DNA from: Prorocentrum cordatum
Taxonomy: Eukaryota
Assembly: GCA_963575745.1 (NCBI GenBank)
Contig: CAUYUJ010000081.1
Span: 434,001-498,000, forward strand
Direction of reading: 5' to 3'
Length of the DNA: 64,000 nucleotides
The notes under the pieces were generated by a model that was not told the DNA's origin, did not search any database, and saw only the letters and a program-made list of their open reading frames with translations. The position numbers and the translations under genes were made by a program. Positions 26,325-56,640 of the stretch are shown here, piece after piece. The first letter of the stretch is position 1; every line of letters starts with the position of its first letter.

Positions 26325-27192
26325 TCATGTCCCCCCACGCGAGAGGACGTTGTGGCGATTGCGAATCTCCTGGCTGGCATCGAGGCGGCATCGAAGATTC
26401 ATGGTCATATTGGTGCGCGGATCGGTCCACCAGATGTCGCCGTTCTTGAGGGAGTCGAGGACCGCGCTAGCGATGTCGACTGAGGCGAATGGAATGGTAT
26501 AGCGTATCTGCATGTTCCTGGCCGCGACGACTGCTCCTTGCTTTGGTGAGCAGGGGGAACTTGGAGCACAGCATCAGCATGAGTCTGAAGCACACGTGCA
26601 AGAACTCGTCGAGGAAAGCCACATATCCAGATCTTGCACTTGTCCGCGTCATCGTTGGGGGGGGCATCGGGCTTGGAGTATCGCCCACTGCACGTCGCTG
26701 CTGGCTACCACTTCCAGAGCTCGAGATGCTCGGGCTGTAGGTCGTACTGCGCGGTGAACGAATCGAGGTGGCGGCCGTCTCGCATACGGCGAGCCTGCTC
26801 TCGAGCTTGGAGAGGATGGAGGCTTCAACGGTTGCGGTGATTCTCTCACAAGTGCCATTCTGGATGCGAGCGATGTGCGTCTCCATGACCGAGAACGCGG
26901 CACCGTGAGCGGCGACCTGGCTCTTGAGGCTGGTGATGTCCGACTTCGTGGCGACGTTCGCGAGCGTGGCGTTCATGTTGTGCAGTATTGTCATGATGTC
27001 ACTCGAGGAGCCGCCAGCCTGGGATGTGACAGGAGTCGGTGGAGCAGGCGAGGCTGGTGTGGAGTTGATGGTCGGCACAGCCTCCTCCTTCGCATCAGCA
27101 GGGTCGTCGTTGAGGTCGGAAACAGCGTCGAAGCTTTCGTCGTCAGCCATGCCGCAGGGGACCTTGGGCGGGATCGGAGTGGCGTGGGACAT
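26325..27192 (-). pseudogene. LINE ORF1-like protein (coiled-coil + RRM-like), frameshifted and 3'-truncated
   Basis: Heptad region NVATKSDITSLKSQV..LESRLAVCE, then across frameshifts KIWICGFPRRVL and WWTDPRTNMTMNLRCRLDASQEIRNR. This resembles L1-type ORF1 architecture. Confidence 0.6.
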
Positions 27193-27259: not shown

Positions 27260-27281
27260 CTTGAGCAACAATGGTTGCGGA
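27260..27281 (-). other. Genomic DinoSL relic (full length)
   Basis: Minus strand TCCGCAACCATTGTTGCTCAAG matches DCCGTAGCCATTTTGGCTCAAG at 18/22, and lies 67 nt upstream of the ATG at 27192. Confidence 0.8.
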
Positions 27282-27640
27282 AGGAGGAGGAGAAGGAGGA
27301 AGAGGAGGAGGGATGGACGGAGGGAGGGAGGGAGGGAGGGAGGCAAGGAGAGGGGGAGGAAGCGGAGGAGGAGGAGGAGGAGAGGAGGAGGAGGAGAAGG
27401 AGCAGGGGAAGCAGGAGGAAGAGGAGCAGGGGGGAGGTGAAAGGAGGAGGAGAGGACTAAGGAGGCAGGAGGGCGCAGGCCCTCTCGCTCGACGAAGGCA
27501 CGGCGCAAGGCGTTGTCGGGTGAAGGGGGGGAGAGAGCGGGGGAGGGAGGGGAGGGAGGGAGTGAGGGGAGGGGGGGAGGGGAGGGAGGGGAGGGGAGGG
27601 GAGGGGAGGGAGGGGAGGGAGGGGAGGGAGGGGGTATAGA

Positions 27641-27752: not shown

Positions 27753-28663
27753 GCGCGCGCGTGCGTAGTGGGTGGTGGTGCACGTGCGTGCGTGCGTGCG
27801 TGTGTGCGTGGGGGGAGGGAGGGGGTATAGAATATGGTTCGAACCAGATTCGCCGCAGAACTGACCGTCGCGAGCTTGGAGGCGCCTCCAGAAGACGGCC
27901 CGCCCAGCAAACGGATGTCGACATCAGCGGGGCTGACACGCGGTTTACATGGCGCGAGACATTCGCGGATTGAGCTCCCTAAAATTCAGCACTGACCCCA
28001 GCATAGCATCCTCTGGCAAGTATGCATCTGCGAAATATTACGTTCTGAAGGTTCTAACCACGTGCTGCGCAACGCAGTACCGACTAGAGAAGAGAAGGCA
28101 CGCCTCCGCCTCTCCATAGCCTCAATGGGGAGAGGTAGACGGAAAGACAGGGAGAAGGAGAAGGAGAAGGAAAAGGGGAAAGAAAAGGAGAAAGAGAAAG
28201 TGAAGGAGGAAGCGGGAGGCGGGAGGAAGCGGCAGCACAGGAGGAATGCGGTTAACCCCCCACGGCCGCCCCGCCGGTCCTGCAGCGGCCTGCGGGGCCC
28301 CCAGGCGCAGCAGGCCCGGCGAAGCGGCCGGCGTCGCCGCCGGCCTGCCCCTGGCCCTGCCCCTGGCCCTGGCGACCGTGGGCGCCTCCAGGGGGAGCGG
28401 GCCCCGTTTTCCTTCCTCGGCCTCTTCATCGGCCTCCTTCTCCTCCTCCTCCTCCTCCTCCTCCTCCTCCTCCTCCTCCTCCTCCTCCTCCTCCTCCTCC
28501 TCCGTTTGCTGGAAGCGGGGGACTTCGGCAAAGTCGTCATGGTTTTTTTTTCTGCCGATACGGACAAAAGAGTCCGAGAGAGAGGAGGGGAAGGAGGAAG
28601 GCCGCACCTCTAGCGGCGCGCCGCCCCTGCAATCGCGGCCGCGGCCGCCGCCGATGCGCCGCC

Positions 28664-31600
28664 CTAGTGGCGCCTGCGCCCCTTTCCCGCGCCTTCGCGG
28701 CCGAGGCGTCCTGCATTCCCCTCCCGGGCTGCAGCAGAGGTCCCAGGCCACAGCCCGCGCTCGAGACGAGCCAGGGTTTCGCGCCCCGCCTGTGTGATCG
28801 GGCCCCCAAGCCCGCGGCAGAGGCGGGCCAATCCCGCGAGCACTCCGCCCTCCCGCGCGGCGTGGGAACCGCAGCGGGCGCAGAACCATACGGACACCTG
28901 ACTGTGCGCCCGCAGGTCATGCGTCGGGTGCGCCAATCCAAGGCCGCGCCAACGGCGTGTTTGGTTAACGGTGCGGTTGGGAAACTGCTTTATTGTGGCA
29001 CCGAACTCACACAGAACAAGATGTGGGAAATCGTGAAACACCGCTTCCTAAATTTCGAATATGCGAATGCACCGAACGAGTACGACACAGCAAGTTGTAG
29101 GAAAACACGAACCACGCGTTCCGAACATTTGCTTGGTTTTTTCTACACCGCCGTTAGCTATCACACCGTTAGCGCGCACACGGCCAGTACAACTTGCGCC
29201 TGCGCTGCAGGGAACCGCGGCTCGGCCGCGAGGCCCTGCGCGGTTGCCGAGGCCGCGGCCAGAGCAGCGGGCGGGCCCGCGCAGGCCGTGCGCAACCACT
29301 TCGCACATGCAGCTCGCGCACCGCGCACCTCCGACCAGCAGCAACGGCAGCGCATCTGCAGTGCTCCAGGCCCCCGCGCTGTTCCTCTGACCATCTGGAC
29401 GTCGTGCCGCGTCCCGCGCAGAGCCTGCTCGAAGGGAGTCGGCTACGGGGCACGCTCGGCGGGCGCATGCCGCCGCCTCGGGTCGGCGCCTCCTGCCGTC
29501 TGCTGAACAGCGGCGAGCCAGGTGCGCGCGCGGCCTGTCCGTCATCGACATCCCGAAGCCTCCCTGAGGGCACGCTTCTGGGCGGCCTGCTCTGCGAGGC
29601 GGTCCGCCTCCCGGTTGAGGCGCGCGCAGATCATGTGGACGCCCTTCTCCGCGGCCTCGTCGTCCGCGAGGTGCGACTCGACCTCGTGGACGAGGAGCTC
29701 GCACGAGCGCTCGGCGACTACCCGCCCCAGCCGCTCCCAAAGGTCGCGGCGAGCGCGGCGGCGGCAAGCGCAGCGCTTGCCCAGCCCACGCTGCACGCGC
29801 GCCGAATCCAGGACATAGCGCAGCTCCCGCCGTGGAGCATCGCAGTCTTCGACGTACTCGACCATCGCCCGCAGCTCCGCGCGGTTGACCGCCTGTGGCT
29901 CGCTGCCTGGGACGCTGCCTCCGCGGCCCCGCATGGGCGCCTCTGGCCCAGCGACCCCGGGCCCCGGGCATTCGTGGACGCCCTCCGCGAGCACGACACG
30001 AGACCATCCCGCGCGTCGCAGCCGCCGGTCGCTGGAACGCCCCCCGCCCGAGCCGTCGCCGCCGCCCCGCCACGGCCGGCCGTCGCCGGCAATATAGGTC
30101 GGGCCCTCGACCCCATTGCCATGCTTCGGAGCCCCCATTGGTCGGCGGCGTCGCAGTCCAAGCAGCGGGAACGAGGCCGCGCAGCTAGAAGCATGACACC
30201 CCGCAGCATCTCGCAGCGCAGCTTCCTCAAGGTCAGCTGTCGCCGCACAGGCCTCGATGCCTTCCTTGCCGTCGTATTCCCTAAAATATGCCCGTCGGTG
30301 TCTGGATGCATCGCCGGTTGCAGCGGCGGCAACGGAGCTCTTTGGGATCGCCCTCAATCCAGGTGTCACCAAGGCGTGAGCGGGCCCAGTGCACCCCCGT
30401 TGCAATTGCCATCCGCGGCCCTCGCCACGGCGCAGCCTTTGCCCGGCGCGAGGCGGCGCAGCTCCCGGCGCAAGAGGTAGAGGTCGCAGCCGCCTCCGAG
30501 GCCTTCCCAGCGACGTGCGCGGAAGGCCGCGCCAAGCAGCGCCCCAGACCGACTGCCCCAGCGCCTCCAGAAACTCCGTCGGGCCCCGCGGCTCGCCCCC
30601 TGCAGCGCTTGCCGCACCGCAGCGCCGCCCCCCCGCGGCTCGTCCACGCGGCGGGGTCCGACTCGGAGCGCGCCCAGCCCAAGTCCAGCAGCGTTGCGAC
30701 TGCTGCCGAGATGGGCCCATCCACCGCCCTCCACTTTCTGTCTGGGCGCGCGCTCGACACGCGGCGCGCGACTTGTTGCCGGACTCGTCGCGGGCGGGAA
30801 AAAGTGTCAACGCGGCCCCTCGACTCCTCCAACAGGTCGCACCACTCGGCGAACAGCCCCCGCACTGCCAGGAAGGTTGGGCCCCGCGCCCCATGCCCCA
30901 GCGCCGGGAAGGCGCGGCGGCACCGGCCGCGCCGTGCGCCGCCGATGGACGCCGCTGCTGCGGGCCCCACGCGCGCTCTCGCAATCGGCGCCAATCCCGC
31001 GGCGGGGGCGCCGCATGAGGCCCGCGGCACGGGGGGCATCTGCGTCAGCAGCCGGGCCGCGCGGCCGAGGCGCGCGCGGCCAGCGCGAAATCCCTCATCC
31101 GCCCCCGGGCGCGCTGCACGCGCTTGCGGTGGCCAATGCGGCTTCCACGACGACAGCGGCACCCCTCGAGGCCGAGGTCCAGCCCGACGCTTTTGAGCCG
31201 CAGCTGCGCGCCGCGCCGGGCTCATCCTCCGGAAGGGCGGCCAGCTCCGCGCTGCCCAGCCAAGCTGCGCGCCTCTTCTCAGCCGCAGCAAGCCGCCTCG
31301 ACCGCTTGCCCCGGGGAGTCGCAGCCTTTGGCGGCCGCGGCGGGCGCGCCGATCGCCGGGGCGCGGGAAACACGCATGGGCATCTCCCATCAGGAAGCCG
31401 GCAGGGGATCGGAACCCACCTGCCCCGCGCGCCCGGAGGCCGCTGGGGCGGTGGATGCCAGGGCCGCCCACTACAGCACAGCCCAGCAAACCACCCTGAC
31501 GCTCTGCGTGCGCAACGTCAGGCAGCGCGAACACGCCGCCGATTGCCTCGAGCCACCCAAACTCGCCAGCTCCTCGGGCGACACGTTGAGATCCCCGAGC

Positions 31601-31850
31601 ACAACCCAGTCCACCCCGAGGCCACGCACGAAGGCTCCTGCGGCGGCCAACTTGGTCAGATTGGCGCCGCGAACGCCGGTGGACGGCCCCCAGGGCCCTG
31701 GGGTCCAGCTAGCATTGGCACGTCTGCCGACCTGCAGCCCCGCCGCCTGCTCCTCCTTGGCCGCGAAGTGCAAGAAGGCCTCAGTCTGCAAATGGCGCCG
31801 CGCACCGATCGCGACACCCCCAGATTGTCATCGCGAGGGGGAGGCACTCC
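28664..31850 (-). pseudogene. LINE ORF2 remnant: APE endonuclease fragment, post-RT region, RNase H, C-terminal Cys/His fingers; RT core absent
   Basis: WVVLGDLNVSPEEL (APE GDxN motif); DGSGG..SSDRRLRRAGW, QAVNRAEL, DLWERL, VESH and NREADRLA (RNase H); HPTH..WFCARCG..LARLC. Confidence 0.8.
28949..29172. mobile_element. 224-bp MITE with 4-bp CGCG TSD inside LINE ORF2
   Basis: Imperfect TIRs ccaacggcgtgtttggttaacgg and ccgttagctatcacaccgttag; CGCG at 28945-28948 and 29173-29176; AT-richer than flanks; removal restores the ORF2 frame. Confidence 0.8.
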
Positions 31851-32529
31851 TCGCCACCCGCGCACATCAAAGTCGCAAAACATATGGGCGACCTCTCCGA
31901 GCGGGGCCCGGGCCCCCAAGAGCGGCGCGACACCCGCCTGAAACGGCGGCCAGTCCAGCGCCGCACGCGCCGAGGGGCCCCAGCAGGATGCGCCGTTGCG
32001 CACGTATGTCTGGCGCGCGGCGGGCGCGGGACGAGGGGCGCCGGGCGGCCAGCCGCCCGCGGCCAGCGCGCGCAGCTGGCGCGAGGCTGCGGCCGCGGGG
32101 CCCTCGGGCGCCCAGCTGTCCTGGTCGCTGTCCGACTCCGCGAGCTCGCGGTGACTGCCGCCAATCGCGCCAGCGCCGCCGCCGGCGCGCGGCGCCGAGA
32201 CCGGCCCCCTCCTGCGCGAAGGCCCAATAAGACGACCAGCGCGCTGACCCCCCCCCCTCGCGACGAGAGGTGCGTCGCGCATTCGTCGCCCTCGCAGGGG
32301 TGCCATTTGGTGAGTGCGTCGCCAGCGCGGCGGGCGCCCATGGGTCGGATCGCACGCGCGTCGCCCGCTCCACGGCCGCTGAAAAGGCCTGTCGCCTTCG
32401 GGAAAAAGAATGTCGCCCACGCCACGGCCCTCTTGGCGAGAAGAAGGCGGCGGCTGGGCTACCTCGGCAGATCAGCAAATCCCTCAAACATTACAAATGC
32501 CGCGACGCTGCTGAACGCACCCCGGAGCT

Positions 32530-34440
32530 AGGCCAGCAGGCCCCCGCAGCCGCCGCCGCAGCCGCTGCGACCGTCGCCAGCGTCAAAACTACCACCGCCA
32601 TGATCACCACAGACGGACGCGACCGCAACCACATCCACCACGACGATTACAACCAACACCACTTACCGCCATTACCACCACCACGACCACCACGCTTCTC
32701 GCGACCACCACAACGACCGACACCAGCGCGATCACCGACGTGACCACCACCAGCCCGCCCACCACCAGCGGCGCGACCACCGCCAGCGCGACCCAGGCGA
32801 CGAACGCGACCACGACCATGATCACCAACATGAACATAACAGAAGCACCCGCCCACTCCGTCCCCCCCCCCTCTCCCCCCCAGCCCCCTGCCGGGCCGCC
32901 CGCGCCGCCGCGCCCGCCCCGCGCCCCTGCCCCCCCGCCCCCCCCCCTCCTTTTCCCCTCGCAATCTCCCTCTTCCACCGCCAGCGGCGGTGCCATTCGC
33001 GGAAGGCGGGGGCGCCGCTCGCGGCGACGCGCCGCGGCGGCGGAAGGGGGGCCGCAGGAGAGGAAGAAAATAAAGGACACGGGGCGGCAAAGGGAAAAAT
33101 GCGAGAGAGGAGGGAGGAGAGACAGACAGAGGGAGGCCGGGGGGAAGGAGGAGGAGAAAGGGGAGGAGAGAGGGAGACGAGGCAGGAGGGAGGACGAAGG
33201 GGGAGGAATGACGAAAGAGGAGGGACGACGAGGAAGGAAAATGGAAGGAACAGGGGCAAGCACCGCCCTTCCTGGCGCAATGGAAGACGCAGCCGCCGCC
33301 ACTCGTGAACAGCGCAAGCACGGCGGGCCGACGGCCGCTGCGCATTGCTGTTCGGGGAAATGCTTGGGGCGGGCAAAGTCGCGACTGCGTCGCGCATGCG
33401 TCGCGCGTGCGTCGCGCGTGCGTCGCGCGTGCGTCGCGCGTGCGTCGCGCGTGCGTCGCGCTTGCTTCGCGCGCGTGGCGCGTGCGCCGCGCGTGCGTCG
33501 CGCGGGTCCTTCGCGCGTCGTGCGCTGGCAGGGGCGCGTCGCGCGCGGGTCGGGGTGCGTCGCGCGCGCGTCGCGCGCGCGCGTCGCGCGTGCGTCGCGC
33601 GCGCGTCTCGCTCGAGCGTCGCTCGGGTCGTTCGCGCGTCGCGCGCAGGTCGCGCGCGAATCGCTCGTTGGGCGCCGCGGACTTCTGACGGCATGTGAAC
33701 TACACGGCCTGCCGGCGAAACAATCGAGGACGCGCGCGACAATCGTAGAAATAGCGAGACACGCACGTGACAACTACGAACGCGAGGAGACCAATAGACG
33801 ACGTGGAGACGCAGCGCGTACGGACTAATCCATTTCAAGCGCACGCCCCGTCAGAATTTGAACATCGTTTCGTCGCTGCAGCAATTTGGCGACGCCTCGC
33901 CCGCCGATGCGCCGGGGGGAAAAGGAGGAGGGAAGTGAGGCGAGGGAAGGGCGGGCGGACAATGGAACGGACGGGCGAGGAGGGGGCGCGCGGGGGCGGC
34001 GCAGCGGCGGCGGGAGCGATGGAAGGCAATCGAACGGGGGCGGCGGGGGCGAGGAGGGCGAGAAGGAAGTCCCAGGAGGGCGGGAGGACAACGGGGGGTG
34101 AGTAGGGAGGGGGACAGGACGGCAGCCTGACGCAAAAGAACTGATTACACATTTCGCAAACGGGACAAAACGCGCAGCGCGTTGGACGAGGGGAAAAGGA
34201 AGGAAGAGGGGGGGGTCAGAAGGATTGGCGCGAAACGACATGGGGGTGCGGGGCGCGATGCGACGGGGCGAAGTGGCGCCGCGTCGCGCGACGCGACGTC
34301 ACCCCCACCGTGGCGCGACACGCACAGCCCCCAATCAACGCGAGGCGTCTTCGTCCTCAGCAACGGTTGGCGCCCCCGAAAATGCGCACCAGCATATCCT
34401 CTTGCGCCGAATTGGAAACAGAACGCGTTGGTGGACCGTC
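32530..34440. repeat. Low-complexity secondary insertion between LINE ORF1 and ORF2, including a (GCGTCGCGCGT)n tract at about 33385-33660; boundaries approximate
   Basis: ACC-, GGA- and GCGTCGC-rich simple sequence unlike the LINE coding flanks. Confidence 0.5.
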
Positions 34441-34649
34441 GAACTAGAGTGCGCCGCGACCGCCAAAGTGGCCGCTGGTGCACCGGCGTCGGAAACCTAT
34501 CGCCAGAGAAAGTCCGAAGTCGCGCCACATGTCGCCCACGCACTCTGGGAGGTCGGGGTTCGGGACAGAGACGCAAACCAGGGCAGGCGCACAGGCGGGC
34601 CTTAACACCCTCCTGCTTCCTGCCCCCTGGGCCTGGGCAAGCCCAGGAT

Positions 34650-36024
34650 GGCACCCTTTATTCCTCGGAGCCCTTGGCAGCTGCCGCGCGGCAGCCCTCG
34701 GCTGGGGCGCTCGAAGCCTCGCGACCGCCAGCGCGCCGCACCTTGGCCGCGACGTCCTGCGCGGCGGCCGCGGCGGCCACCTCCGACGTTGCTCCTGCCA
34801 GCAGGCTTGCCAGCAGCCAGGGGGCGCTCCTCGGCCGCGTCGGCCATTTCCTGCCGTGGGCTGTCGGAGACGCGGGGCCAGGGCCCTGACGCTAAGCCTC
34901 TGCGCGCGGCTCGCCTTCGGCCGGCGCCTGAGACGGGCCCCCAAATGCCCGACGGGCTGCGGGGGGCCCGACCACTGACCGGCGAGGTCTGCGCCATCGT
35001 CAGACAGGTCGTCGTCTTCCACGGGGCGGCTCTCCGCCCGCCGCTCGCGCTGCGATTGCGGAGGCGGCTCCTGCATTTGGGCTCGGACCGCCCCCGTCTG
35101 CTTCACCATTTCGGCCCGCGCAAATTGGATGTTGCTCGCCTGCCACGGCCTCCAGGCTGCCGAACTGCAGGAGTAGGCCGGGGACTGGACTCTGCTTCAA
35201 GCGCTGCCACCTTGAGGCGCTCCTCAGCCTCGGCGGCCTCCCGCGCCTCAGCCTCGAGCTCGCGACGCTCCTCAGCCTCGTCGCGCCCGTCCTAGAGCCT
35301 GCAGTACTCCTCTTGCGCCTGATGGAGCCGCTCCTCGGACTCCTGGAGCGCCTGCTCCTTGTCCTCGAGCGCCTTGCGCGCTGCTGTGAGCTACCACCAG
35401 GCCATGCCCACTGCCGAGGCCTCGCGGCGCAGCGGCGCGGCCCGCGGAAGGCTGGGGGTCTTCGCGGCGGCAGCGGCCGCTCGCGCCCCCTCGAGCCCCT
35501 CTCGAATGCGCCTCAGCTGGCCCTCGACCTCCGCCGCGAAGGAGTCGGTGACCCCGAGGGGAGGGTGGTCTCGGAGGGCCTGCTGCACGCCCTGCGCCGC
35601 CTCGGCGACCAGGTCGCTCTCCTCGGAAGCGCGCCGTTTACCCTTGCCGGCGTCTGGGGCCGCACCAGGGGGAGCCGACTTGGCGCCGCCGTCGTTCCCT
35701 GCGCGGCCCCCCCCGCCTGGCTGGCCGCCGTGCGCAGAGGCCTGCTTGGCGGCCCGCGCCGCGGCTCCGCGCGCGCGCCGCCGCGTTGCGCGGCCCCGGG
35801 GCTGATCGACCCAGCCCTCGCTGTCCGCCTGCACCTGGGACGGGGGGCGGTTGCGCGCCATCCTGGCCCTTCGGCGGGGGCGGGAGCTCCGCGTGCGCCC
35901 AGGGCGGCTGCTTGCACGAGCAACCCATGCACTGGCCGCGCCACGCCCAGGTCCAAAGGCGGCACTGCTGGGCTGGGCACGTCCAGTGGGTGCACCGTCG
36001 TACCCGAGAGCTGTGGCGCGCCAT
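34650..36024 (-). pseudogene. LINE ORF1 remnant: N-terminal RanBP2-like Zn finger and coiled coil
   Basis: ATG at 36024 gives MARHSSRVRRCTHWTCPAQQCRLWTWAWRGQCMGC; downstream E/A/R-rich heptads with stops and frameshifts. 3' end approximate. Confidence 0.65.
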
Positions 36025-36059
36025 GTCCGGACCAGACCAGCGTGCGAGGGGCGGCGCCA

Positions 36060-36081
36060 CTTGAGCCAAAATGGAGATGGA
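36060..36081 (-). other. Genomic DinoSL relic (full length) at the LINE 5' end
   Basis: Minus strand TCCATCTCCATTTTGGCTCAAG is 19/22 identical to DinoSL, the last 15 nt are perfect, and it abuts the TSD exactly. Confidence 0.92.
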
Positions 36082-36849
36082 CAAAGTCGTCATGGTACAG
36101 CTGCAGGACATGACGGTGTCGGCGCTCGTGAAGGTCCTAACTCGTGTCCTTCATCGCGGGCTTCTGGAAGGCGGTTGCATCGGTTCCGACCAGCTGGGCG
36201 CTGGACGATTACGTCTTCGCGGGCATTTGCAAAGCGATCGCATCGGTGCCGAGCTGCGACGTGCTGCTCGTGGGCCTTGGGAAGGCGATGGCATCGGTGC
36301 CAACCAAGGTTTTCGCGTCCAGCGCCGTCCTGCAAGGTCATCGGGAGGAATACGGTGCTCTGCTTCTCGGAGCTCCGAGATTTTGATCGGCCCCAGCGAG
36401 GCCTTCGAGGGAGGCTGGACTGGAAGCGCCATCCCCTCCCTCCTGCTCGGCTTGGCCATCCAAGCCCAAATCGTGGGGAGTGGGGGCGTGGTTGTCTCTG
36501 GTGGCGTGGCGCCCCAGGCCTAGCCTCCCTCTCGCGGGACGCGAGGGACAAGCTCCACAATCCATTCCCAGTTCCTCCTCCAGCTCCTCGATCTCCCATC
36601 CCTCCTCGTCACACCTCCTCCTCCCCCTCCTCCGTTTGTCCCTCCTCCTCCTCCTCCTCCTCCTTCTCCTCTTTCTCCTCCTCCTCCTCCTCCTCCTCCT
36701 CCTCCTCCTCCTCCTCCTCCTCCTCCTCCTCCTCTTGCTGCTGCTGCTGTTGATCATCTTCCTTCCCTGGCAAAAGCCAGGTCCGGCTCTGTTGCATGAT
36801 GATCTGGAAAAGGCGCGCGATGCGCGGACACACACAAAAAGACATACAC

Positions 36850-38340: not shown

Positions 38341-38705
38341 TACATATACGTACGCATACCGATAGGACCACCCTGCGGGTGACAAGGAGGTTGGGGGGGA
38401 GTGGGGAGGCGGTCGAGTTGTAATGGCTCGGAGTTCCTTGCTGGCTTCTTTAACTGTCCTATCTATCACTCGACCAGTATATCTAATTACCAATTCCGAA
38501 TACCCATATGTCTATACATGCATGTATATATGTATACATTTGTAGTTTGACATGTCTGTATATAAGTATATATATGTAGATCTGCATGTATCGATCTAAC
38601 CATCCCGTATATATATATATGCATATGTATATATGTATATATGTATACATATATATATATGAATATATATATATATATGTATACATATATATATATATAT
38701 ATATC

Positions 38706-41700
38706 CATCGGGGCAACCATAGGGCAAGCCATCGGGACAAGCATCGGGACAACCATCGGGACAACCGTCGGGACAACCATCGGGACAACTATCGGGACAA
38801 CCGTCGGGACAACCATCGGGACAAACATCGGGACAAACATCGGGACAACCATCGGGACAACCATCGGGGCAACATCATCGGCACAACATCATCGAGACAA
38901 CAATCGGGACAGCCATCGGGACAACCATCGGGACAACCACCGGAACAACCACCGGGACAACCATCGGGACAACCATCGGGACAACACCATCGGGACAACC
39001 ATCGGGACAACACCATCGGCACAACCCTCGGGACAACCATCGGGACAACCACCAGGACAACCAAGGTGAACCATCGGGACAACCATCGGGACAACCATCG
39101 GGACAACCATCAGGACAACCATCGGGACAACCATCGGGACAACCATCCGGACAACCATCGGGACAACCATCGGGACAACCATCAGGACAACCCTCGGGAC
39201 AACCATCGTGAAAACCGTCGGGACAACCATCCGGACATCCATCGAGACAACCATCGGGACAACCATCGGGACAACACCATCGGGACAACATCATCGGGAC
39301 AACCATCGGGACAACCATCGGGACAACCATCGGGACAACCATCGGGACAACCACCAGGACAACCACGGTGAACCATCGAGAAAACCATCGGGACAACCAT
39401 CGGGACAACCATCGGGACAACCATCAGGACAACCATCGGGACAACCATCGGGACAACCATCCGGACAACCATCGGAACAACCATCGGGACAACCATCGGG
39501 ACAGCCATCGGGACAACCATCGGGACGACCATCGGGACAACCATCGGGACAACCTTCGGGACAACCAGCGGGACACCAATCGGGACAACCCTCGGGACAA
39601 CCATCGGGACACCCATCGGGACAACCCTCGGGACAACCATCGGGGAAACCATCGGGACAACCATCGGGACAACCACGGGGACAACCATCGGGACAGCCAT
39701 CGGGACAACACCATCGGGGCAACACCATCGGGGCAACCATCGGAGCAACATCATCGGCACAACATCATCGAGACAACAATCGGGACAGCCATCGGGACAA
39801 CCATCGGGACAACCATCGAGACAACCATCGGGACAACCATCGGGACAACCATCGGGACAACCAGCGGGACACCAATCGGGACAACCCTCGGGACAACCAT
39901 CGGGACAACCGTCGGGACAACCATCGGGACAACCATCGGGACAACCATCGGGACAACCATCCGGACAGCCATCGGGGCAACCATCGGGACAACCATCGGG
40001 ACAACCATCGGGACAACCATCGGGGCACACATCGGGACAGCCATCGGGACAACCATCGGAACAACCATCGGGACAACCATCGGGACAACCATCGGGACAA
40101 CCATCGGGACGACCATCGGGACAACCATCGGGACAACCATCGGGACAACCATCGGGACACCCATCGGGAGAACCGTCGGGACACCCATCGGGGCAACCAT
40201 CGGGACATCCATCAGGACACCCATCGGGACAACCATCGGGACAACCATCGGGACAACCATCGGGACACCCATCAGGACAGCGATCGGGACAATCATCGGG
40301 ACAACCATCGGGACAACCGTCGGGGTAACCATCGGGACAACCACGGGGACAACCGTCGGCACAACCATCGGCACAACACCACTGGGGCAACACCATCAGG
40401 AACACCATCGGGACAACATCATCGAGACAACCATCGAGACAACCATCGGGACAACCATCGGGACAACCATCGGGACAACCATCGGGACAACCATCGGGAC
40501 AAACATCGGGACAAACATCGGGACAACCATCGGGACAACCATCGGGGCAACCATCGGGACAGCCATCCGGGCAACCATCGGGGCAAACATCGGGACAACC
40601 ATCGGGGACCATCGGGACCCATCGGGACAACCAACAACCATCGGGACAACCATCGGGACAACCATCGGGACAACCATCGGGATCAGGACAGCCATCGGGA
40701 CAATCATCGGGACAACCATCGGGACAACCATCGGGATAACCATCGGGACAACCACGGGACAACCATCGGCACAACCATCGGCACAACACCACGGGCAACA
40801 CCATCACACCATCGGGACAACATCATCGAGACAACCATCGAGACAACCATCGGGACAACCATCGGGACAACCATCGGGACAACCATCGGGACAACCATCG
40901 GGACATCGGGACCATCGGGACAACCATCGGGACAACCACAACCATCGGGACAACCATCGGGACATCGGGCCATCGGGGCAACCATCGGGACAACCATCAA
41001 CCATCGGGACAACCATCGGGACAACCATCGGGACACCCATCGGGACAACCATCGGGACAACCATCGGGACAACCATCGGGGCAACCATCGGGACAACCAT
41101 CGGGACCAACCATCGGGACAACCATCGGGCAACCATCGGGTCGGGGCAACCGTCGGGACAACCATCGGGACAACCAACGGGACATCCATCAGGACAACCA
41201 TCGGGACAACCATCGGGACTACCATCGGGACAACCATCGGGACAACCATCGGGACAACCATCGGGACAATCATCGGGACAACCATCGGGACAACCGTCGG
41301 GATAACCATCGGGACAACCACGGGGACAACCATCGGCACAACCATCTGGACAACACCACCGGGGCAACACCATCGGGACAACATCATCGAGACAATCATC
41401 GAGACAACCATCGGGAAAACCATCGGGGCAACCATCGGGGCAACAATCGGGACAAACATCGGGACAACCATCGGGACAACCATCGGGACAGCCATCGGGA
41501 CAATCTTCGGGACATCCATCAGGACAACCATCGGGACAGCAATCGGGACACCCATCGGGACAACCATCGGGACAACCATCGGGACAACCATCGGAACAAC
41601 CATCGGAACAACCATCGGGACAACCATCGGGACAACCATCGGAACAACCATCGGGACAACCATCGGGACAACCATCGGGACATCCATCAGGACAACCATC

Positions 41701-44700
41701 GGGACAACCATCAGGACAACCATCGCGACAACCATCGGGACAACCATCAGGACAGCCATCGGGACAACCATCGGGACAACCATCGGGACAACCATCGGGA
41801 CAGCCATCGGGACAACCATCGGGACGACCATCGGGACAACCATCGGGACAACACCACGGGGGCAACACCATCGGGACAACATCATCGGGACATCATCATC
41901 GGGACAACCATCGGGACAACAATCGGGACAACCATCGGGACAACCATCGGGACAATCATCGGGACAACCATCCGGAAAACCATCGGGACAACCATCGGGA
42001 CAGCCATCGGGGCAACCATAGGGACAACCATCGGGACAACGATCGGGACAACCATCGGGACAACATCGGGACGACCATCCGGACATCCATCGGGACAACC
42101 ATCGGGACAACCATCGGGACAACCATCGGGACACCCATCGGGACAACCATCGGGACACCCATCGGGGCAACCATCGGGACATCCATCGGGACAACCATCG
42201 GGACAACCATCGGGACAACCATCGGGACAACCATCGGGACAACCATCGGGACATCCATCAGGACAGCCATCGGGATAACCGTCGGGACAACCATCGGGAC
42301 AACCGTCGGGATAACCGTCGGGACAACCACGGGGACACCCATCGGCACAACCATCGGCACAACACCACCGGGGCAACATCATCGGGACAACATCATCGGG
42401 ACAACATCATCGAGACAACCATCGGGACAACCATCGGGACAACCATCGGGGCAACCATCGGGACTACCATCGGGACAACCATCGGGACAACCATCGGGAC
42501 AGCCCTCGGGGCAACCATCGGGGCAACCATCGGGACAACCATCGGGACAGCCATCGGGACACCCATCAGGACAACCATCGGGACAACCATCAGGACAACC
42601 ATCGGGACAACCATCGGGACAACCATCGGGACAACATCATCGGAACAACCATCGGGGCAACCATCGGCACAACCATCGGGACAATCTTCAGGACATCCAT
42701 CAGGACAACCATCGGGACAACCATCGGGACAACCATCGGGACAACCATCGGGACACACATCAGGACAACCATCGGGACAACCATCGGGACAACCATCGGG
42801 ACAACCATCGGGACACCCATCAGGACAGCCATCCGGACAATCATCGGCACAACCATCGGCACAACACCACCGGGGCAACACCATCGAGACAACATCATCG
42901 GGACAACATCATCGGGACAACCATCGGGACAACCATCGGGACAACCATCGGAACAACCATCGGAACAACCATCGGGACAACCATCGGGACACCCATCAGG
43001 ACAGCCATCGGGACAACCATCGGGACAACCATCGGGACAACCGTCGGGACAACCGTCGGGACAACCACGGGGACAACCATCGGCACAACCATCTGGACAA
43101 CACCACGGTGGGCAACACCATCGGGACAACATTATCGGGACAACATCATCGGGACAACCATCGGGACAACAATCGGGACAACCATCGGGACAACCATCGG
43201 GACAACCATCGGGACAACCATCCGGAAAACCATCGGGACAACCATCGGGACAGCCATCGGGGCAACCATCGGGGCAACCATCGGGACAACCATCGGGACA
43301 ACCATCGGGACACCCATCGGGACACCATCCGGACATCCATCGGGACAACCATCGGGACAACCATCGGGACAACCATCGGGACAACCATCGGGACAACCAT
43401 CGGGACACCCATCGGGGCAACCATCGGGACATCCATCGGGACAACCATCGGGACAACCATCGGGACAACCATCGGGACAACCATCGGGACAACCATCGGG
43501 ACACCCATCAGGACAGCCATCGGGATAACCGTCGGGACAACCATCGGGACAACCGTCGGGATAACCGTCGGGACAACCACGGGGACAACCATCGGCACAA
43601 CCATCGGCACAACACCACCGGGGCAACATCATCGGGACAACATCATCGGGACAACATCATCGAGACAACCATCGGGACAACCATCGGGACAACCATCGGG
43701 TCAATCATCGGGACTACCATCGGGACATCCATCAGGACAGCCATCGGGACAGCCCCTGGGGCAACCATCGGGGCAACCATCGGGGCAACCATCGGGACAA
43801 CCATCGGGACACCCATCAGGACAACCATCGGGACAACCATCAGGAACACAATCGGGACAACATCATCGGGACAACATCATCGGGACAACCATCGAGACAA
43901 CCATCGGGACAACCATCGGGACAACCATCGGGACAATCTTCGGGACATCCATCAGGACAACCATCGGGACAACCATCGGGACAACCATCGGGACAACCAT
44001 CGGGACACACATCAGGACAACCATCGGGACAACCATCGGGACAACCATCGGGACAACCATCGGGACACCCCTCAGGACAGCCATCCGGACAATCATCGGC
44101 ACAACCATCGGCACAAAACCACCGGGGCAACACCATCGAGACAACATCATCGGGACAACATCATCGGGACAACCATCGGGACAACCATCGGGACAACCAT
44201 CGGGACAACCATCGGAACAACCATCGGGACAACCATCGGGACACCCATCAGTACAGCCATCGGGACAACCATCGGGACAACCATCGGGACAACCGTCGGG
44301 ACAACCGTCGGGACAACCACGGGGACAACCATCGGCACAACCATCTGGAAAACACCACGGGGGCAACACAATCGGGACAACATCATCGGGACAACATCAT
44401 CGGGACAACCATCGGGACAACAATCGGGACAACCATCGGGACAGCCATCGGGACACCCATCAGGACAACCATCGGGACAACCATCGGGACACCCATCGAG
44501 ACAATCTTCGGGACATCCATCGGGACATCCATCGGGACAACCATCGGGACAACCATCGGGACAACCATCGGGACACCCATCGGGACAACCATGGGGACAC
44601 CCATCGGGGCAACCATCGGGACATCCATCGGGACATCCATCAGGACAACCATCGGGACAACCATCGGGACAACCATCGGGACGACCATCGGGACAACCAT

Positions 44701-47700
44701 CGGGACACCCATCAGGACAGCCATCGGGATAACCGTCGGGACAACCATCGGGACAACCGTCGGGATAACCGTCGGGACAACCACGGGGACAACCATGGGC
44801 ACAACCATCGGCACAACACCACCGGGGCAACGTCATCGGGACACCATCATCGGGACAACATCATCGAGACAACCATCGGGACAACCATCGGGACAACCAT
44901 CGGGGCAACCATCGGGACTACCATCGGGACAACCATCGGGACAACCATCGGGACAGCCATCGGGGCAACCATCGGGACAACCATCAGGACAACCATCGGG
45001 ACAGCCATCGGGACACCCATCAGGACAACCATCGGGACAACCATCAGGACAACCATCGGGACAACCATCGGGACAACCATCGGGACAACCATCGGGACAA
45101 CCATCGGGACAACCATCGGGACAACCATCGGGACAACCATCGGGACAACCATCGGGACAACCATCGGGACAACCATCGGGACAACATCGGGACAACCATC
45201 GGGACCATCGGGACCATCGGGACCCACACCCATCAGGACAGCATCCGGACAATCATCGGCACAACCATCGGCACAACACCACCGGGGCAACACCATCGAG
45301 ACAACATCATCGGGACAACATCATCGGGACAACCATCGGGACAACCATCGGGGCAACCATCGGGACACCCATCGGGACAACCATGGAGACACCCATCGGG
45401 GCAACCATCGGGACATCCATCGGGACATCCAGCAGGACAACCATCGGGAAAACCATCGGGACAACCATCGGGACGACCATCGGGACAACCATCGGGACAC
45501 CCATCAGGACAGCCATCGGGATAACCGTCGGGACAACCATCGGGACAACCGTCGGGATAACCGTCGGGACAACCGTCGGGACAACCACCGGCACAACCAT
45601 CGGCACAACACCACCGGGGCAACATCATCGGGACAACATCATCGGGACAACATCATCGAGACAACCATCGGGACAACCATCGGGACAACCATCGGGGCAA
45701 CCATCGGGACTACCATCGGGACAACCATCGGGACAACCATCGGGACAGCCCTCGGGGCAACCATCGGGCAACCATCGGGACAACCATCGGGACACCATCG
45801 GGACACCATCAGGACAACCATCGGGACAACCATCGGGACAACCATCAGGACAACCATCGGGACAACCATCGGGGCAACCATCGGGACAACCATCGGGACA
45901 ATCTTCGGGACATCCATCAGGACAACCATCGGGTCAACCATCGGGGTCCACCATCGGGACAACCATCGGGACACACATCAGGACAACCATCGGGACAACC
46001 ATCGGGACAACCATCGGGACAACCATCGGGACACCCATCAGGACAGCCATCCGGACAATCATCGGCACAACCATCGGCACAACACCACCGGGGCAACACC
46101 ATCGAGACAACATCATCGGGACAACATCATCGGGACAACCAACGGGACAACCATCGGGGCAACCATCGGGACAGCCCTCGGGACACCCATCAGGACAACC
46201 ATCGGGACAACCATCGGAAACAACCATCGGGACCACCATCGGTACACCCATCGGGACCGACACATCAGGACAACCATCGTGACAACCATCGGGACAACCA
46301 TCGGGAACAACCATCGGGACAAACCCCATCAGGACATGCCATCCGGACAATCATCGGCACAACCATCGGCACAACACCACCGTGGCAACACCATCGAGAC
46401 AACATCATCGGGACAACATCATCGGGACAACCATCGGGACAACCATCGGGGCAACCATCGGGACAGCCCTCGGGACACCCATCAGGACAACCATCGGGAC
46501 ACCCATCGGGACAACCATCGGGTCCACCATCGGGACAACCATCAGGACACACATCAGGACAACCATCGGGACAACCATCGGGACAACCATCGGGACAACC
46601 ATCGGGACACCCATCAGGACAGCCATCCGGACAATCATCGGCACAACCATCGGCACAACACCACCGGGTCAACACCATCGAGACAACATCATCGGGACAA
46701 CATCATCGGGACAACCATCGGGACAACCATCGGGGCAACCATCGGGACAGCCCTCGGGACACCTCAGGACAACCATCGGGACACCCATCGGGACAACCAT
46801 CGGTTCCACCATCCGGGAAACAATCGGGACACACATCAGGACAACCATCGGGACAACCATTCGGGACAACCATCGGGACAACAATCGGGACAACAATCAG
46901 GACAGACATTTCGGGACAATCATCGGCAAAAACCATCGCCACAAACACCACCGGGGCAACACCATTCGAGACAACATCATCGGGACAACATCATCGGACA
47001 ACCATCGGGGACACCATCGGGGCAACCACGGACAGCATCGGGACCCACCATCAAGACAACCCATCGGCACCCATCGGACAACCATCGGGTCCACCATCGG
47101 GACAACCATCGGGACACACATCAGGACAACCATCGGGACAACCATCGGGACAACCATCGGGACAACCATCGGGACACCCTTCAGGACAGCCATCCGGACA
47201 ATCATCGGCACAACCATCGGCACAACACCACCGGGGCAACACCATCGAGACAACATCATCGGGACAACATCATCGGGACAACCATCGGGACAACCATCGG
47301 GGCAACCATCGGGACAGCCACAGCCGCGGGACACCCACAGTCGCGCCGCCGGGACACCATCGGGACAACCATCGGGTCCACATCGGGACAACCATCGGGA
47401 CACACATCAGGACAACCATCGCGGGACACAACCATCGGGACAAACCATCGACAACCATCGGGACACCCATCAGGCAGCCATCGGGACATCAATCGGCACA
47501 ACCATCGGCACAACCCAACGGGGCAACACCATCGAGAAAACATCAACGGCGACAACATCATGGGACAACCATCGGGACAACCACGGCGGCAAACCATCGG
47601 GACACCCCTCGGGACACCCATCAGGACAACCATCGGGACACCCATCGGGACAACCATCGGGTCCACCATCGGGACAACCATCGGGACACACATCAGGACA

Positions 47701-48486
47701 ACCATCGGGACAACCATCGGGACAACCATCGGGACAACCATCGGGACACCCATCAGGACAGCCATCCGGACAATCATCGGCACAACCATCGGCACAACAC
47801 CACCGGGGCAACACCATCGAGACAACATCATCGGGACAACATCATCGGGACAACCATCGGGACAACCATCGGGGCAACCATCGGGACAACCATCGGGACA
47901 ACCATCAGGACAACCATCGGGACACCCATCGGGACAACCATCGGGTCCACCATCGGGACAACCATCGGGACACACATCAGGACAACCATCGGGACAACCA
48001 TCGGGACAACCATCGGGACAACCATCGGGACACCCATCGGGACACCCATCCGGACAATCATCGGCACAACCATCGGCACAACACCACCGGGGCAACACCA
48101 TCGAGACAACATCATCGGGACAACATCATCGGGACAACCATCGGGACAACCATCGGGGCAACCATCGGGACAGCCCTCGGGACACCCGCCATCAGACAAC
48201 CATCGGGACACCCATCGGGACAACCATCGGGGCAACCATCAGAACAACAATCGGGACAACCATCCCGAACAACCATCGGGACAACCATCGGGACAACCAT
48301 CGGGACAACCATCGGGACACCCATCGGGACAACCATCGGGACAACCATCGGGTCAACTATCGGGACAACCATTGAGGAACCATTGGGACAACCATCGGGA
48401 CAACCATCGGGACAACCATCGGGACAACCATCCGGACAATCATCGGGGCAACCATCGGGACAACCATCGGGAGAACTACCCGGACA
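38706..48486. repeat. 12-bp satellite (CCATCGGGACAA)n, ~9.8 kb, with higher-order structure
   Basis: Read directly; runs into the assembly gap. Confidence 0.98.
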
Positions 48487-48586
48487 NNNNNNNNNNNNNN
48501 NNNNNNNNNNNNNNNNNNNNNNNNNNNNNNNNNNNNNNNNNNNNNNNNNNNNNNNNNNNNNNNNNNNNNNNNNNNNNNNNNNNNNN
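48487..48586. other. Assembly gap (100 N)
   Basis: N run. Confidence 1.
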
Positions 48587-48619
48587 CTCCTCCTCCTCCT
48601 CCTCCTCCTCCTCCTCCTC

Positions 48620-50780: not shown

Positions 50781-50817
50781 ACCCGCGAGCGCCGCAGCCG
50801 CGACCAGGCCGCGTGAC

Positions 50818-50902
50818 CTCCTTGGAACGGCCTGGCCACCAGCCGAGCCAGTCGACGAGCCAGGCGACGTAGACCATGAGGGTCAAAGAGATCAGGGCCA
50901 CC
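50818..50902 (-). CDS. Candidate 85-bp host exon encoding a hydrophobic, transmembrane-like segment (VALISLTLMVYVAWLVDWLGWWPGRSKE)
   Basis: ctccccag|G acceptor and GAG|gt donor, GC3-rich codons, and the only unique island between two microsatellite fields. Confidence 0.5.
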
Positions 50903-50981
50903 CTGGGGAGTGAGCGCTGCGTCATCATCATCATTCTCCACAGATCATCGTCATAGCTCAATGTCACGATCCTCATCCTGC

Positions 50982-56640
<5,659 letters not shown>

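What the first reader, a model, noticed from the sequence alone, without database searches (positions are those of the whole stretch)
28529..36095. LINE insertion that begins with a full-length spliced leader and is bounded by poly(A) and a 14-bp TSD
Seen: CAAAGTCGTCATGG is duplicated at 28529-28542 and 36082-36095. Directly inside the right copy is a 22-nt DinoSL (19/22 identical), and directly inside the left copy is A9 on the minus strand. Between them are ORF1 (ATG 35 nt after the SL) and APE/RNase H ORF2 remnants. Established: DinoSL is added to mRNAs by trans-splicing, and TSD plus poly(A) marks target-primed reverse transcription. Inference: the transposition intermediate was an SL-capped mRNA copied to its first base, so the element's 5' end is supplied by host trans-splicing rather than by an internal promoter.
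Basis: partly seen in the sequence, partly recalled or inferred. Interest (0 to 1): 0.88.

Follow-up and report, generated by a model that had tools for sequence, protein, structure and literature searches.

The report
Dinoflagellate LINE copy starting with spliced leader
A 7.5-kb dead copy of a dinoflagellate jumping gene (LINE) sits between perfect target-site duplications, starts with the host's spliced-leader tag and ends in a short poly(A), which shows it was copied from a trans-spliced messenger RNA.

Summary
CAAAGTCGTCATGG occurs exactly twice in the window (28529-42, 36082-95). Between the copies lies a 7,539-nt, GC-rich insert on the minus strand. It starts with a 22-nt DinoSL relic (19/22; nt 8-22 are 15/15) and ends in A9.

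It is LINE-derived. A profile of six long relatives maps in order onto APE, post-RT, RNase H and C-terminal Cys/His pieces. Profile positions 215-876, which hold the RT core, are missing (about 2 kb deleted). ORF1 and ORF2 are frameshifted, so the copy is dead and not autonomous.

The spliced leader lies inside the TSD, so it belonged to the inserted cDNA. This excludes insertion next to an existing SL.

Of 21 distantly related LINE loci from metagenomes, two carry clear DinoSL relics just upstream of ORF1. L013 is intact and has three stacked relics; L002 has two. A third locus (L011) is marginal.

This supports SL-trans-spliced LINE RNA as the template. Replacement of an internal promoter by the SL is still inferred. 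All three mismatches fall in SL nt 1-7 and are unexplained. No genome or reads could be used.

This is a new variant of the known DinoSL-retrocopy kind. Interest is moderate to high.

The parts
36082..36095 (.). Target-site duplication, copy at the element's 5' side (CAAAGTCGTCATGG on +)
   Evidence: Exact 14-mer; only 2 copies in the window; chance expectation 0.01
36060..36081 (-). DinoSL relic, 22 nt: TCCATCTCCATTTTGGCTCAAG. It is 19/22 overall; nt 8-22 are 15/15, and the mismatches are at nt 4, 6 and 7.
   Evidence: Only hit in the window at up to 3 mismatches, 0 of 100 shuffles. Gapped-scan score 32 against a background of 23 or less.
36025..36059 (-). 35-nt 5' UTR between the SL and the first ATG
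   Evidence: Read directly
34661..36024 (-). ORF1 remnant. It has an N-terminal W-x-C-x4-C...C-x2-C zinc-finger-like motif (about 35985) and then a coiled-coil-like region. There is a frameshift near 35870 and in-frame stops at 35391-35393 and 35292-35294.
   Evidence: Three-frame translation and motif grep. No Pfam hit. Related loci have the same ORF1 layout.
32100..34660 (-). Low-complexity spacer between ORF1 and the APE domain; no coding signal
   Evidence: The intact relative L013 also has about 2 kb between the ORF1 end and the APE domain, so a nested insertion is not needed to explain it.
31561..31824 (-). APE endonuclease remnant, N-terminal part (family profile 26-105)
   Evidence: hmmsearch 4.2e-8; Pfam Exo_endo_phos E 2.5e-4, below cut-off; tblastn with P0007, P0029, P0055
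31263..31367 (-). APE remnant, C-terminal part (profile 181-214); weak
   Evidence: hmmsearch E 0.016
31215..31263 (-). Deletion junction. Profile positions 215-876 (linker and RT core) are absent, a loss of about 2 kb.
   Evidence: Collinear profile map. The RT part of the profile (488-682) matches human LINE-1 ORF2p.
30314..31078 (-). Post-RT region of ORF2 (profile 925-1172). A degenerate CCHC knuckle follows at about 30284-30340 (judged by eye).
   Evidence: hmmsearch 1e-18; consensus of alignment A1; translation
29560..30090 (-). RNase H domain (profile 1253-1427). The D, E, D, D positions are present (DGS, NRAEL, LDS, NREAD).
   Evidence: hmmsearch 1.7e-31. phmmer found 90 relatives at E<=1e-3, and 16 of the 18 scanned carry Pfam RNase_H (14 of them above the cut-off of 25.8 bits). 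Pfam on the window piece gives E 0.013.
28712..29415 (-). ORF2 C-terminal region, including a Cys/His-rich domain (28712-28945, profile 1538-1609)
   Evidence: hmmsearch 1.5e-13 and 1.8e-3; tblastn, best P0051 at 60% identity
28552..28711 (-). 3' UTR
   Evidence: Lies between the end of the profile match and the A-run
28543..28551 (-). Poly(A) tail remnant, A9
   Evidence: Read directly
28529..28542 (.). Target-site duplication, copy at the element's 3' side

Best explanation
The stretch 28543-36081 (minus strand) is one retrotransposition event in a dinoflagellate nuclear genome. The template was a polyadenylated transcript of an APE-RT-RNase H LINE, and that transcript carried the 22-nt dinoflagellate spliced leader at its 5' end. 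It was reverse-transcribed at a staggered chromosomal break (target-primed reverse transcription) all the way to its first base. The product is SL + 35-nt UTR + ORF1 + ORF2 + A9, flanked by a 14-bp target-site duplication.

What is shown: the boundaries, the SL identity, the LINE identity, and the position of the SL inside the TSD.

What is inferred:
- The SL was added by trans-splicing to a LINE pre-mRNA, probably one made by read-through transcription.
- LINEs of this group habitually travel as SL-capped mRNAs. An SL relic then supplies the acceptor AG for the next round, which produces stacked relics.

This particular copy lacks the RT core and is frameshifted. Either a defective RNA was mobilised by the machinery of another copy, or the copy decayed after insertion.
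For: - The TSD is exact, has 2 copies only, and has a chance expectation of 0.01.
- The DinoSL relic directly abuts the TSD (0 of 100 shuffles). It scores 32 against a background of 23 or less in 1794 chunks.
- A9 abuts the other TSD copy.
- The insert is 68-73% GC against 54-63% in the flanks.
- LINE identity: phmmer with the RNase H piece found 90 relatives. Among the 18 scanned, RVT_1, zf-RVT and Exo_endo_phos are present.
- The profile of six long relatives maps in order onto the insert and nowhere else in the window.
- The same profile matches human LINE-1 ORF2p RT (E 5e-7) and RNase HI (E 7e-7) in the PDB.
- Independent loci: among 21 metagenome loci of the same profile family, L013 is an intact element with a 463-aa ORF1 and a 2175-aa ORF2. 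It has CCATTTTGGCTCAAG, CCATTTTGGCTCTAG and a third degenerate unit ending about 45 nt before the ORF1 ATG.
- L002 has TCCGTAGCC-GTTGGCTCA about 95 nt before its ORF1 ATG, preceded by TTGGCCAAAG.
- Both loci reach p<0.002 against 500 shuffles of their upstream regions.
- All six sites that score 26 or more lie on the LINE sense strand.
- Truncated relics stacked after an AG are the published signature of repeated trans-splicing and reintegration (passages in PMC3229502, and PMC7245778).
Against: - The RT core is deleted and the ORFs are broken. This copy therefore says little about how an autonomous element starts its transcript.
- All three SL mismatches lie in nt 1-7. By my arithmetic, 35/1540 = 0.023 if they were placed at random. 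The TSD is 14/14, so a freshly added canonical SL followed by ordinary decay fits poorly.
- Of 7 related loci with at least 120 nt upstream of ORF1, only 2 have a significant relic. One is marginal (L011, p about 0.02) and 4 are not significant (L006, L009, L010, L016).
- One SL-like site lies inside ORF2 of L006 and L011, so not every strong hit marks a 5' end.
- The related loci are only 25-32% identical in protein to the window copy, and their source organisms are unknown.
- For L013 and L002 neither a TSD nor a 3' end could be checked.
- The 14-mer could be tested only within 64 kb.
Confidence: 0.75

Rival explanations
1. The relic is inherited and was not newly added. A master copy already carried the mutated relic TCCATCT...CAAG as part of its 5' UTR. 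Its transcript started at the element's first base from an internal promoter, as in many LINEs, so the last round involved no trans-splicing.
For: The three mismatches cluster in nt 1-7 and remove the internal AG, while the TSD is 14/14. Song et al. 2017 propose that the TTTG inside relics may act as a promoter (passage).
Against: Nothing shows an internal promoter. Stacked truncated relics in L013 and L002 are what re-splicing predicts; faithful inheritance from a fixed start site does not predict them. A start exactly at relic nt 1 would be a coincidence unless selected.
Confidence: 0.15
2. Only a 15-nt truncated relic (nt 8-22) comes from an SL. The 7 nt before it are filler or untemplated bases added at the 5' junction, so the cDNA was not copied to the first base of an SL-capped RNA.
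For: nt 8-22 are 15/15 but nt 1-7 are only 4/7. By my arithmetic, 4 or more matches out of 7 arise about 7% of the time by chance. Extra bases at LINE 5' junctions are known from general L1 biology (recalled, not from a call).
Against: The TSD begins exactly 22 nt upstream of the SL's 3' end, and the first three bases are TCC as in the SL. A 5'-truncated cDNA of an SL+relic RNA would show the 3' end of the SL (GCTCAAG) before the relic, and it does not.
Confidence: 0.07
3. The LINE is site-specific and inserted next to or into a pre-existing SL relic or SL RNA gene, in the manner of SLACS, CZAR and NeSL-1. On this reading the SL belongs to the target and not to the insert.
For: In L006 the A-rich LINE tails are followed directly by SL-like strings. 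In L011 the relic candidate lies 12 nt after the tail of an upstream partial copy.
Against: In the window the SL lies inside the TSD. The TSD and the 3' flank contain no SL sequence. The element has an APE-type endonuclease, whereas the SL-gene-targeting LINEs use a restriction-like one (the properties of SLACS, CZAR and NeSL are recalled).
Confidence: 0.02
4. Assembly chimera or chance. The repeat pair and the SL-like string do not mark a real insertion.
For: No reads could be laid on the region, and the genome is repeat-rich.
Against: Three independent features (TSD, SL, A-run) coincide to the base. Each is far beyond chance. A collinear LINE body and a GC step lie exactly between them.
Confidence: 0.01

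Closest known systems
DinoSL-tagged retrogenes / 'recycled processed cDNAs' of dinoflagellates (Slamovits & Keeling 2008, as quoted in PMC3229502; Song et al. 2017, PMC5585692; PMC12014239)
   Same: There is a genome-encoded DinoSL relic at the 5' end of a retrocopied transcript. In relatives L013 and L002 the truncated relics are stacked after an AG.
   Different: The retrocopied transcript here is a LINE and not a cellular gene. The SL, the poly(A) and a 14-bp TSD are seen together at one locus, which ties the relic to target-primed reverse transcription. In the passages I read, the reverse-transcribing machinery was called unknown. [quoted passage not shown]
APE-type non-LTR retrotransposons with C-terminal RNase H; the nearest solved structure is human LINE-1 ORF2p (8c8j, 8uw3, 8sxt)
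   Same: The family has an ORF1, then an ORF2 with APE, RT, a CCHC knuckle and RNase H. It also has a poly(A) tail and a variable-length TSD. The family profile matches the L1 ORF2p RT at E 5e-7.
   Different: The family is very divergent. Almost all Pfam APE and RT matches in the family fall below the curated cut-offs (the only one above is RVT_1 in P0035, 31.9 against 29.6 bits). There is a long spacer or N-terminal extension before the APE domain, and an extra C-terminal Cys/His domain. The window copy has lost the RT core. The clade within LINEs was not determined.
L1Tc/ingi of trypanosomatids (Pr77 internal promoter plus HDV-like ribozyme; PMC1874656, PMC3185411, abstracts seen)
   Same: These are LINEs in an organism whose mRNAs are all SL-trans-spliced and whose transcription is largely read-through. 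They face the same problem of defining the element's 5' end.
   Different: According to those abstracts, L1Tc solves the problem with its own promoter and ribozyme and yields unspliced transcripts. The dinoflagellate copies instead carry the host SL itself.
SL-gene-targeting LINEs (SLACS, CZAR, CRE, NeSL-1)
   Same: A LINE is physically next to spliced-leader sequence.
   Different: Those elements insert into SL RNA genes with a restriction-like endonuclease, so the SL is target DNA (recalled knowledge). Here the SL is inside the TSD, the TSD is not SL sequence, and the endonuclease is APE-type.
SL exons merged to transposable elements in Schistosoma mansoni (PMC5832876, passages)
   Same: The authors found six genome-encoded SL exons merged to (retro)transposable elements. 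They suggested these are trans-spliced, retro-transcribed elements.
   Different: This is a different phylum and a different SL. The authors gave no boundaries (TSD or poly(A)) and cautioned that assembly chimeras were possible.

Membership tests
Non-LTR retrotransposon (LINE), APE type | Apurinic/apyrimidinic-like endonuclease domain at the ORF2 N-terminus | tested here: met
   Family profile 26-105 at 31561-31824, E 4e-8. Pfam Exo_endo_phos is only sub-threshold, at 21.3 against 24.5 bits.
Non-LTR retrotransposon (LINE), APE type | Reverse transcriptase domain | tested here: not met
   It is absent from this copy. Profile positions 215-876 are missing, with only about 48 nt between the flanking pieces, and there is no Pfam RVT hit. 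It is present in relatives: P0007 and P0035 have RVT_1, L013 has the HVDD motif, and the profile matches the L1 ORF2p RT. The copy is therefore LINE-derived but not an autonomous LINE.
Non-LTR retrotransposon (LINE), APE type | TPRT footprint: 3' poly(A) or A-rich tail, target-site duplication, no terminal repeats | tested here: met
   A9 and a 14-bp exact TSD. The repeat scan of the window listed no long terminal repeat pair at these ends.
Non-LTR retrotransposon (LINE), APE type | Multiple dispersed copies in the genome | not testable with these tools
   No genome is held. There is no second copy in the 64-kb window.
DinoSL-tagged retrocopy | DinoSL sequence encoded in DNA at the 5' end of the transcribed unit, in sense orientation | tested here: met
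   19/22, in sense, 35 nt before the ATG.
DinoSL-tagged retrocopy | The relic belongs to the inserted cDNA and not to the target | tested here: met
   The relic lies between the two TSD copies and directly abuts one of them.
DinoSL-tagged retrocopy | The source transcript is SL-trans-spliced in vivo | not testable with these tools
   No sequencing run was listed, so no reads were laid.
SL-gene-targeting site-specific LINE (SLACS/CZAR/NeSL type) | Insertion within SL RNA gene sequence, with SL sequence on both sides or forming the TSD | tested here: not met
   The TSD CAAAGTCGTCATGG and the 3' flank are not SL sequence.

The most novel reading that the evidence does not exclude
In dinoflagellates this LINE group has no promoter of its own. 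Read-through transcripts are cut out and capped by SL trans-splicing. The SL is copied back into DNA with each insertion, and the relic then serves as the built-in splice acceptor (and perhaps as a start signal) for the next generation. On this reading the stacked relics count generations, and these LINEs are the engine that makes the thousands of DinoSL-tagged retrogenes. The RT-less window copy, with its perfect TSD, would be a direct example of that machinery acting in trans.
Probability: 0.4. Interest if true: 0.75.

Novelty: new variant of a known kind. Interest (0 to 1): 0.6.

Why it matters
DinoSL relics have long been used to call retrogenes. In the papers I could read, however, the machinery behind them was still described as unknown or only presumed to be LINEs (PMC5585692; PMC12014239). 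One preprint also argued that retroposition and retrotransposition are separate processes.

A LINE-derived insert with the SL inside a TSD and a poly(A) at the other end links the relic directly to target-primed reverse transcription. It also shows that LINE RNAs themselves pass through the trans-splicing pathway.

If this is general, it offers a promoter-independent solution to the LINE 5'-end problem. That solution would differ from the promoter-plus-ribozyme solution of trypanosome L1Tc. It also gives a simple census test, SL against TSD, for dating and counting full-length insertions in very large dinoflagellate genomes.

Tried and rejected
- Whole-genome search: no genome is held.
- Sequencing runs: none was listed for 28000-36600, so no RNA holder was listed.
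- The search for homologous proteins found nothing with the 500-aa ORF or with the ORF behind the second relic. With the RNase H piece and lengths set to 'longer' it found 4 unnamed proteins, the best 48% identical.
- Cluster look-up of 10 relatives: all come from ENA or Logan, with no names.
- Viral-contig scans found no relatives (ORF1 N-terminus; P0007; alignment A1). The genome-contig scan found none.
- Pfam found nothing for ORF1 of the window or of 5 related loci. The zinc-finger reading is by eye only.
- The 10-mer TTGGCTCAAG at up to 1 mismatch is too common inside ORF2 to support relics in L010 and L016. Those candidates, and the one in L009, are not significant. I do not count them.
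- 5' UTR similarity between the window copy and 6 loci: none beyond chance (best p 0.045 for L016, the others 0.37 or more). I dropped the idea of a shared UTR motif.
- Nested insertion as the explanation for the spacer at 32100-34660: not needed, because intact L013 has a similar spacer.
- Pfam on 185 other window ORFs (137, 48) found no other transposon domains, only low-complexity hits in satellite arrays.
- Literature: 4 full-text searches and passages from 12 papers. I found no explicit description of a dinoflagellate LINE with a DinoSL inside a TSD. Supplements were not opened, and subscription papers, including Slamovits & Keeling 2008 itself, were not seen.

Full report
**The observation**

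The 14-mer CAAAGTCGTCATGG stands at 28529-28542 and at 36082-36095. These are the only two matches in the window even when one mismatch is allowed. The expectation from 100 shuffles is 0.01.

On the minus strand the sequence just inside the right copy reads TCCATCTCCATTTTGGCTCAAG (36081-36060). The DinoSL consensus DCCGTAGCCATTTTGGCTCAAG is printed in PMC8045281 and PMC7245778. Against it the window string is 19/22. It is the only site in the window within 3 mismatches, and 0 of 100 shuffles gave any.

Just inside the left copy lies T9 on the + strand (28543-28551), which is A9 on the element's strand. The first ATG follows the leader by 35 nt (36024). The 7,539 nt between the repeats are 68-73% GC, against 54-63% on either side.

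**What the insert is**

Pfam alone gives little:
- a sub-threshold Exo_endo_phos match (E 2.5e-4, 21.3 against 24.5 bits) at 31474-31827;
- a sub-threshold RNase_H match (E 0.013) at 29545-30132;
- no reverse transcriptase.

An exhaustive phmmer search with the 196-aa RNase H-like piece found 90 proteins at E<=1e-3 and 7 at E<=1e-10. I scanned 18 of them. Sixteen carry Pfam RNase_H, 14 of them above the curated cut-off. Two also have RVT_1, one has zf-RVT and one has Exo_endo_phos. One hit was a spurious Ig-repeat protein. All come from ENA or Logan assemblies and carry no names.

A profile of six long relatives (alignment A1, 1622 positions) matches human LINE-1 ORF2p RT (E 5e-7, profile 488-682). 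It also matches RNase HI (E 7e-7, profile 1314-1404) among solved structures. The family is therefore an APE-RT-RNase H non-LTR retrotransposon.

The profile maps onto the window only inside the insert, and in order:

| Window coordinates | Profile positions | Region | E-value |
|---|---|---|---|
| 31824-31561 | 26-105 | APE | 4e-8 |
| 31367-31263 | 181-214 | APE, C-terminal part | weak |
| 31215-31069 | 877-928 | | weak |
| 31078-30314 | 925-1172 | post-RT | 1e-18 |
| 30090-29560 | 1253-1427 | RNase H | 1.7e-31 |
| 29415-29242 | 1480-1528 | | |
| 28945-28712 | 1538-1609 | C-terminal Cys/His domain | 1.5e-13 |

Profile positions 215-876, which contain the RT core, have no counterpart. Only about 48 nt separate the flanking pieces. 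This copy has therefore lost roughly 2 kb, including the polymerase.

The pieces lie in different reading frames. ORF1 (36024 to about 34661) has a frameshift near 35870 and two in-frame stops. By eye, ORF1 begins with a W-x-C-x4-C...C-x2-C motif and continues as a coiled-coil-like region. Pfam does not recognise it.

The 2.5 kb of low-complexity sequence between ORF1 and the APE domain has a counterpart of about 2 kb in an intact relative (L013). I therefore do not invoke a nested insertion.

**Where the leader belongs**

The SL lies between the two TSD copies and touches one of them. The TSD and the 3' flank contain no SL sequence. The leader was therefore part of the inserted cDNA and not of the target.

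This excludes the SLACS/CZAR/NeSL type of explanation, in which a LINE inserts into SL genes. Combined with the A9 at the other end, it is the footprint of target-primed reverse transcription of a polyadenylated RNA whose 5' end was the spliced leader.

**Independent copies**

No genome is held for the window and no sequencing run was listed.

As a substitute I fetched 21 metagenome loci that encode relatives of the family profile. I scanned them, together with the window, for DinoSL on both strands. In a gapped scan of 1794 chunks the background ends at score 23. Only six distinct sites score 26 or more, and all are on the LINE sense strand:
- the window relic (score 32);
- a second window relic at 27280-27260 (score 26);
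- L013 779-795 (score 34);
- L002 12-29 (score 27);
- one site inside ORF2 that is shared by the near-identical L006 and L011 (score 27).

L013 is an intact element with a 463-aa ORF1 and a 2175-aa ORF2 carrying APE, RT, CCHC, RNase H and the Cys/His tail. It has CCATTTTGGCTCAAG, CCATTTTGGCTCTAG and a third degenerate unit in tandem. The array ends about 45 nt before the ORF1 ATG.

L002 starts with TTGGCCAAAG-C-TCCGTAGCC-GTTGGCTCA-G, about 95 nt before its ORF1 ATG. Both loci beat all 500 shuffles of their upstream regions.

Seven loci have at least 120 nt upstream of ORF1. Two of them are significant. L011 is marginal (p about 0.02), although its candidate lies 12 nt after the A-rich tail of an upstream partial copy, which is where an element boundary is expected. 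L006, L009, L010 and L016 are not significant.

The related loci are distant from the window copy, at 25-32% protein identity. Their organisms are unknown, and their 3' ends or TSDs could not be checked.

Truncated relics stacked after an AG are the published signature of repeated cycles of trans-splicing, reverse transcription and reintegration (passages in PMC3229502, and PMC7245778).

**Mechanism**

Shown:
- a LINE-derived RNA with a DinoSL at its 5' end and a poly(A) tail was inserted by a process that leaves a 14-bp TSD;
- related intact LINEs carry single or stacked DinoSL relics in front of ORF1.

Inferred:
- LINE pre-mRNAs are SL-trans-spliced like other dinoflagellate mRNAs;
- the SL-capped mRNA is the usual template;
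- each new copy brings an acceptor AG for the next round.

The claim that this replaces an internal promoter is plausible but untested.

The window copy cannot have made its own RT. Either a defective RNA was mobilised in trans, which would itself show the family's machinery acting on other SL-mRNAs, or the deletion came later.

**An unexplained detail**

All three mismatches to the SL lie in nt 1-7. If they were placed at random this would happen with probability 35/1540 = 0.023 (my arithmetic). They remove the internal AG. nt 8-22 are perfect and the TSD is 14/14.

Ordinary decay after insertion fits this poorly. Possible causes are:
- a variant SL. A non-canonical DinoSL has been reported in Polarella (passage);
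- misreading near the cap;
- filler bases at the junction;
- a relic inherited from a master copy that is transcribed from its first base.

The outermost unit of L013 is aberrant at the same place. Only genome-wide copies can decide between these.

**Comparison with what is known**

DinoSL relics in front of retrogenes are well established (PMC6050394 and PMC5585692 abstracts; PMC12014239 passages).
- Song et al. noted that the GO term 'RNA-dependent DNA replication' is enriched among relic-bearing genes, and called the reverse-transcribing agent unknown.
- In Schistosoma, six SL exons merged to transposable elements were reported, with a caution about assembly.
- Trypanosome L1Tc defines its 5' end with its own promoter and ribozyme (abstracts).

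In four full-text searches I found no description of a dinoflagellate LINE with the SL inside a TSD. Supplements and subscription papers were not seen. I therefore rate this a new variant of a known kind.

**Verdict**

- Confidence is 0.75 that this is a TPRT insertion of an SL-bearing LINE-derived RNA.
- The probability is about 0.4 that SL trans-splicing is the family's regular, promoter-independent way of making its 5' end.
- Interest is 0.6.

Noticed in passing
window 27260-27281 (-) and 26467-27192 (-): A second DinoSL relic, TCCGCAACCATTGTTGCTCAAG (18/22; gapped score 26 against a background of 23 or less). It lies 67 nt before the ATG of a 241-aa ORF that has a coiled-coil-like middle, and directly after a (CTC)n tract. 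The ORF has no homologue (0 of 721 candidates) and no Pfam hit. Its 3' end and TSD were not found.
   Followed up: partly
window 38500-48900 (+): A satellite of about 10 kb with a 12-nt period and strong AT skew (0.42-0.56). It is open in several frames for up to 2117 aa, and those frames give spurious PT-repeat and Gly-zipper Pfam hits.
   Followed up: partly
window 50800-56000: A low-GC (37-40%) repeat array with strongly negative GC skew (-0.55 to -0.65) and unit spacings of 9, 12 and 15 nt. It differs sharply from the 55-63% GC surroundings.
   Followed up: no
L006 6441-6474 and 7440-7455; L011 340-391: The A-rich 3' tails of LINE copies ((A)nTC-like) are followed at once by SL-like strings: TCGTAGGGTTGGCTCAAG then TTCTGGCCCAAG, and CAATTTTGGCTAC. 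In L011 the full-length element's relic candidate follows the tail of an upstream partial copy. This suggests that retrocopies land in LINE tails or form head-to-tail arrays.
   Followed up: partly
L006 4607-4626 and L011 4989-5008: An SL-like 20-mer, TCCGTGCGCATTGGCTCAAG (score 27), lies inside ORF2 in sense orientation. It is shared by these two near-identical elements. It is either chance or the trace of an old chimeric junction.
   Followed up: no
L010 1-230 and L015 5167-5241: The 5' flank of one element and the 3' flank of another (right after its A7 tail) are both (TAGTAC)n microsatellite. This hints at a target preference in that lineage.
   Followed up: no
window 28436-28505 and 27300-27450: Long (CTC)n/(GAG)n tracts lie within 25 nt of the LINE insertion site and next to the second relic.
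   Followed up: no
window 36060-36081; L013 774-781: In both the window copy and L013 the outermost SL unit is aberrant only in its first 7 or so nucleotides (TCCATCT; CTGCAAG), while the rest is perfect.
   Followed up: partly
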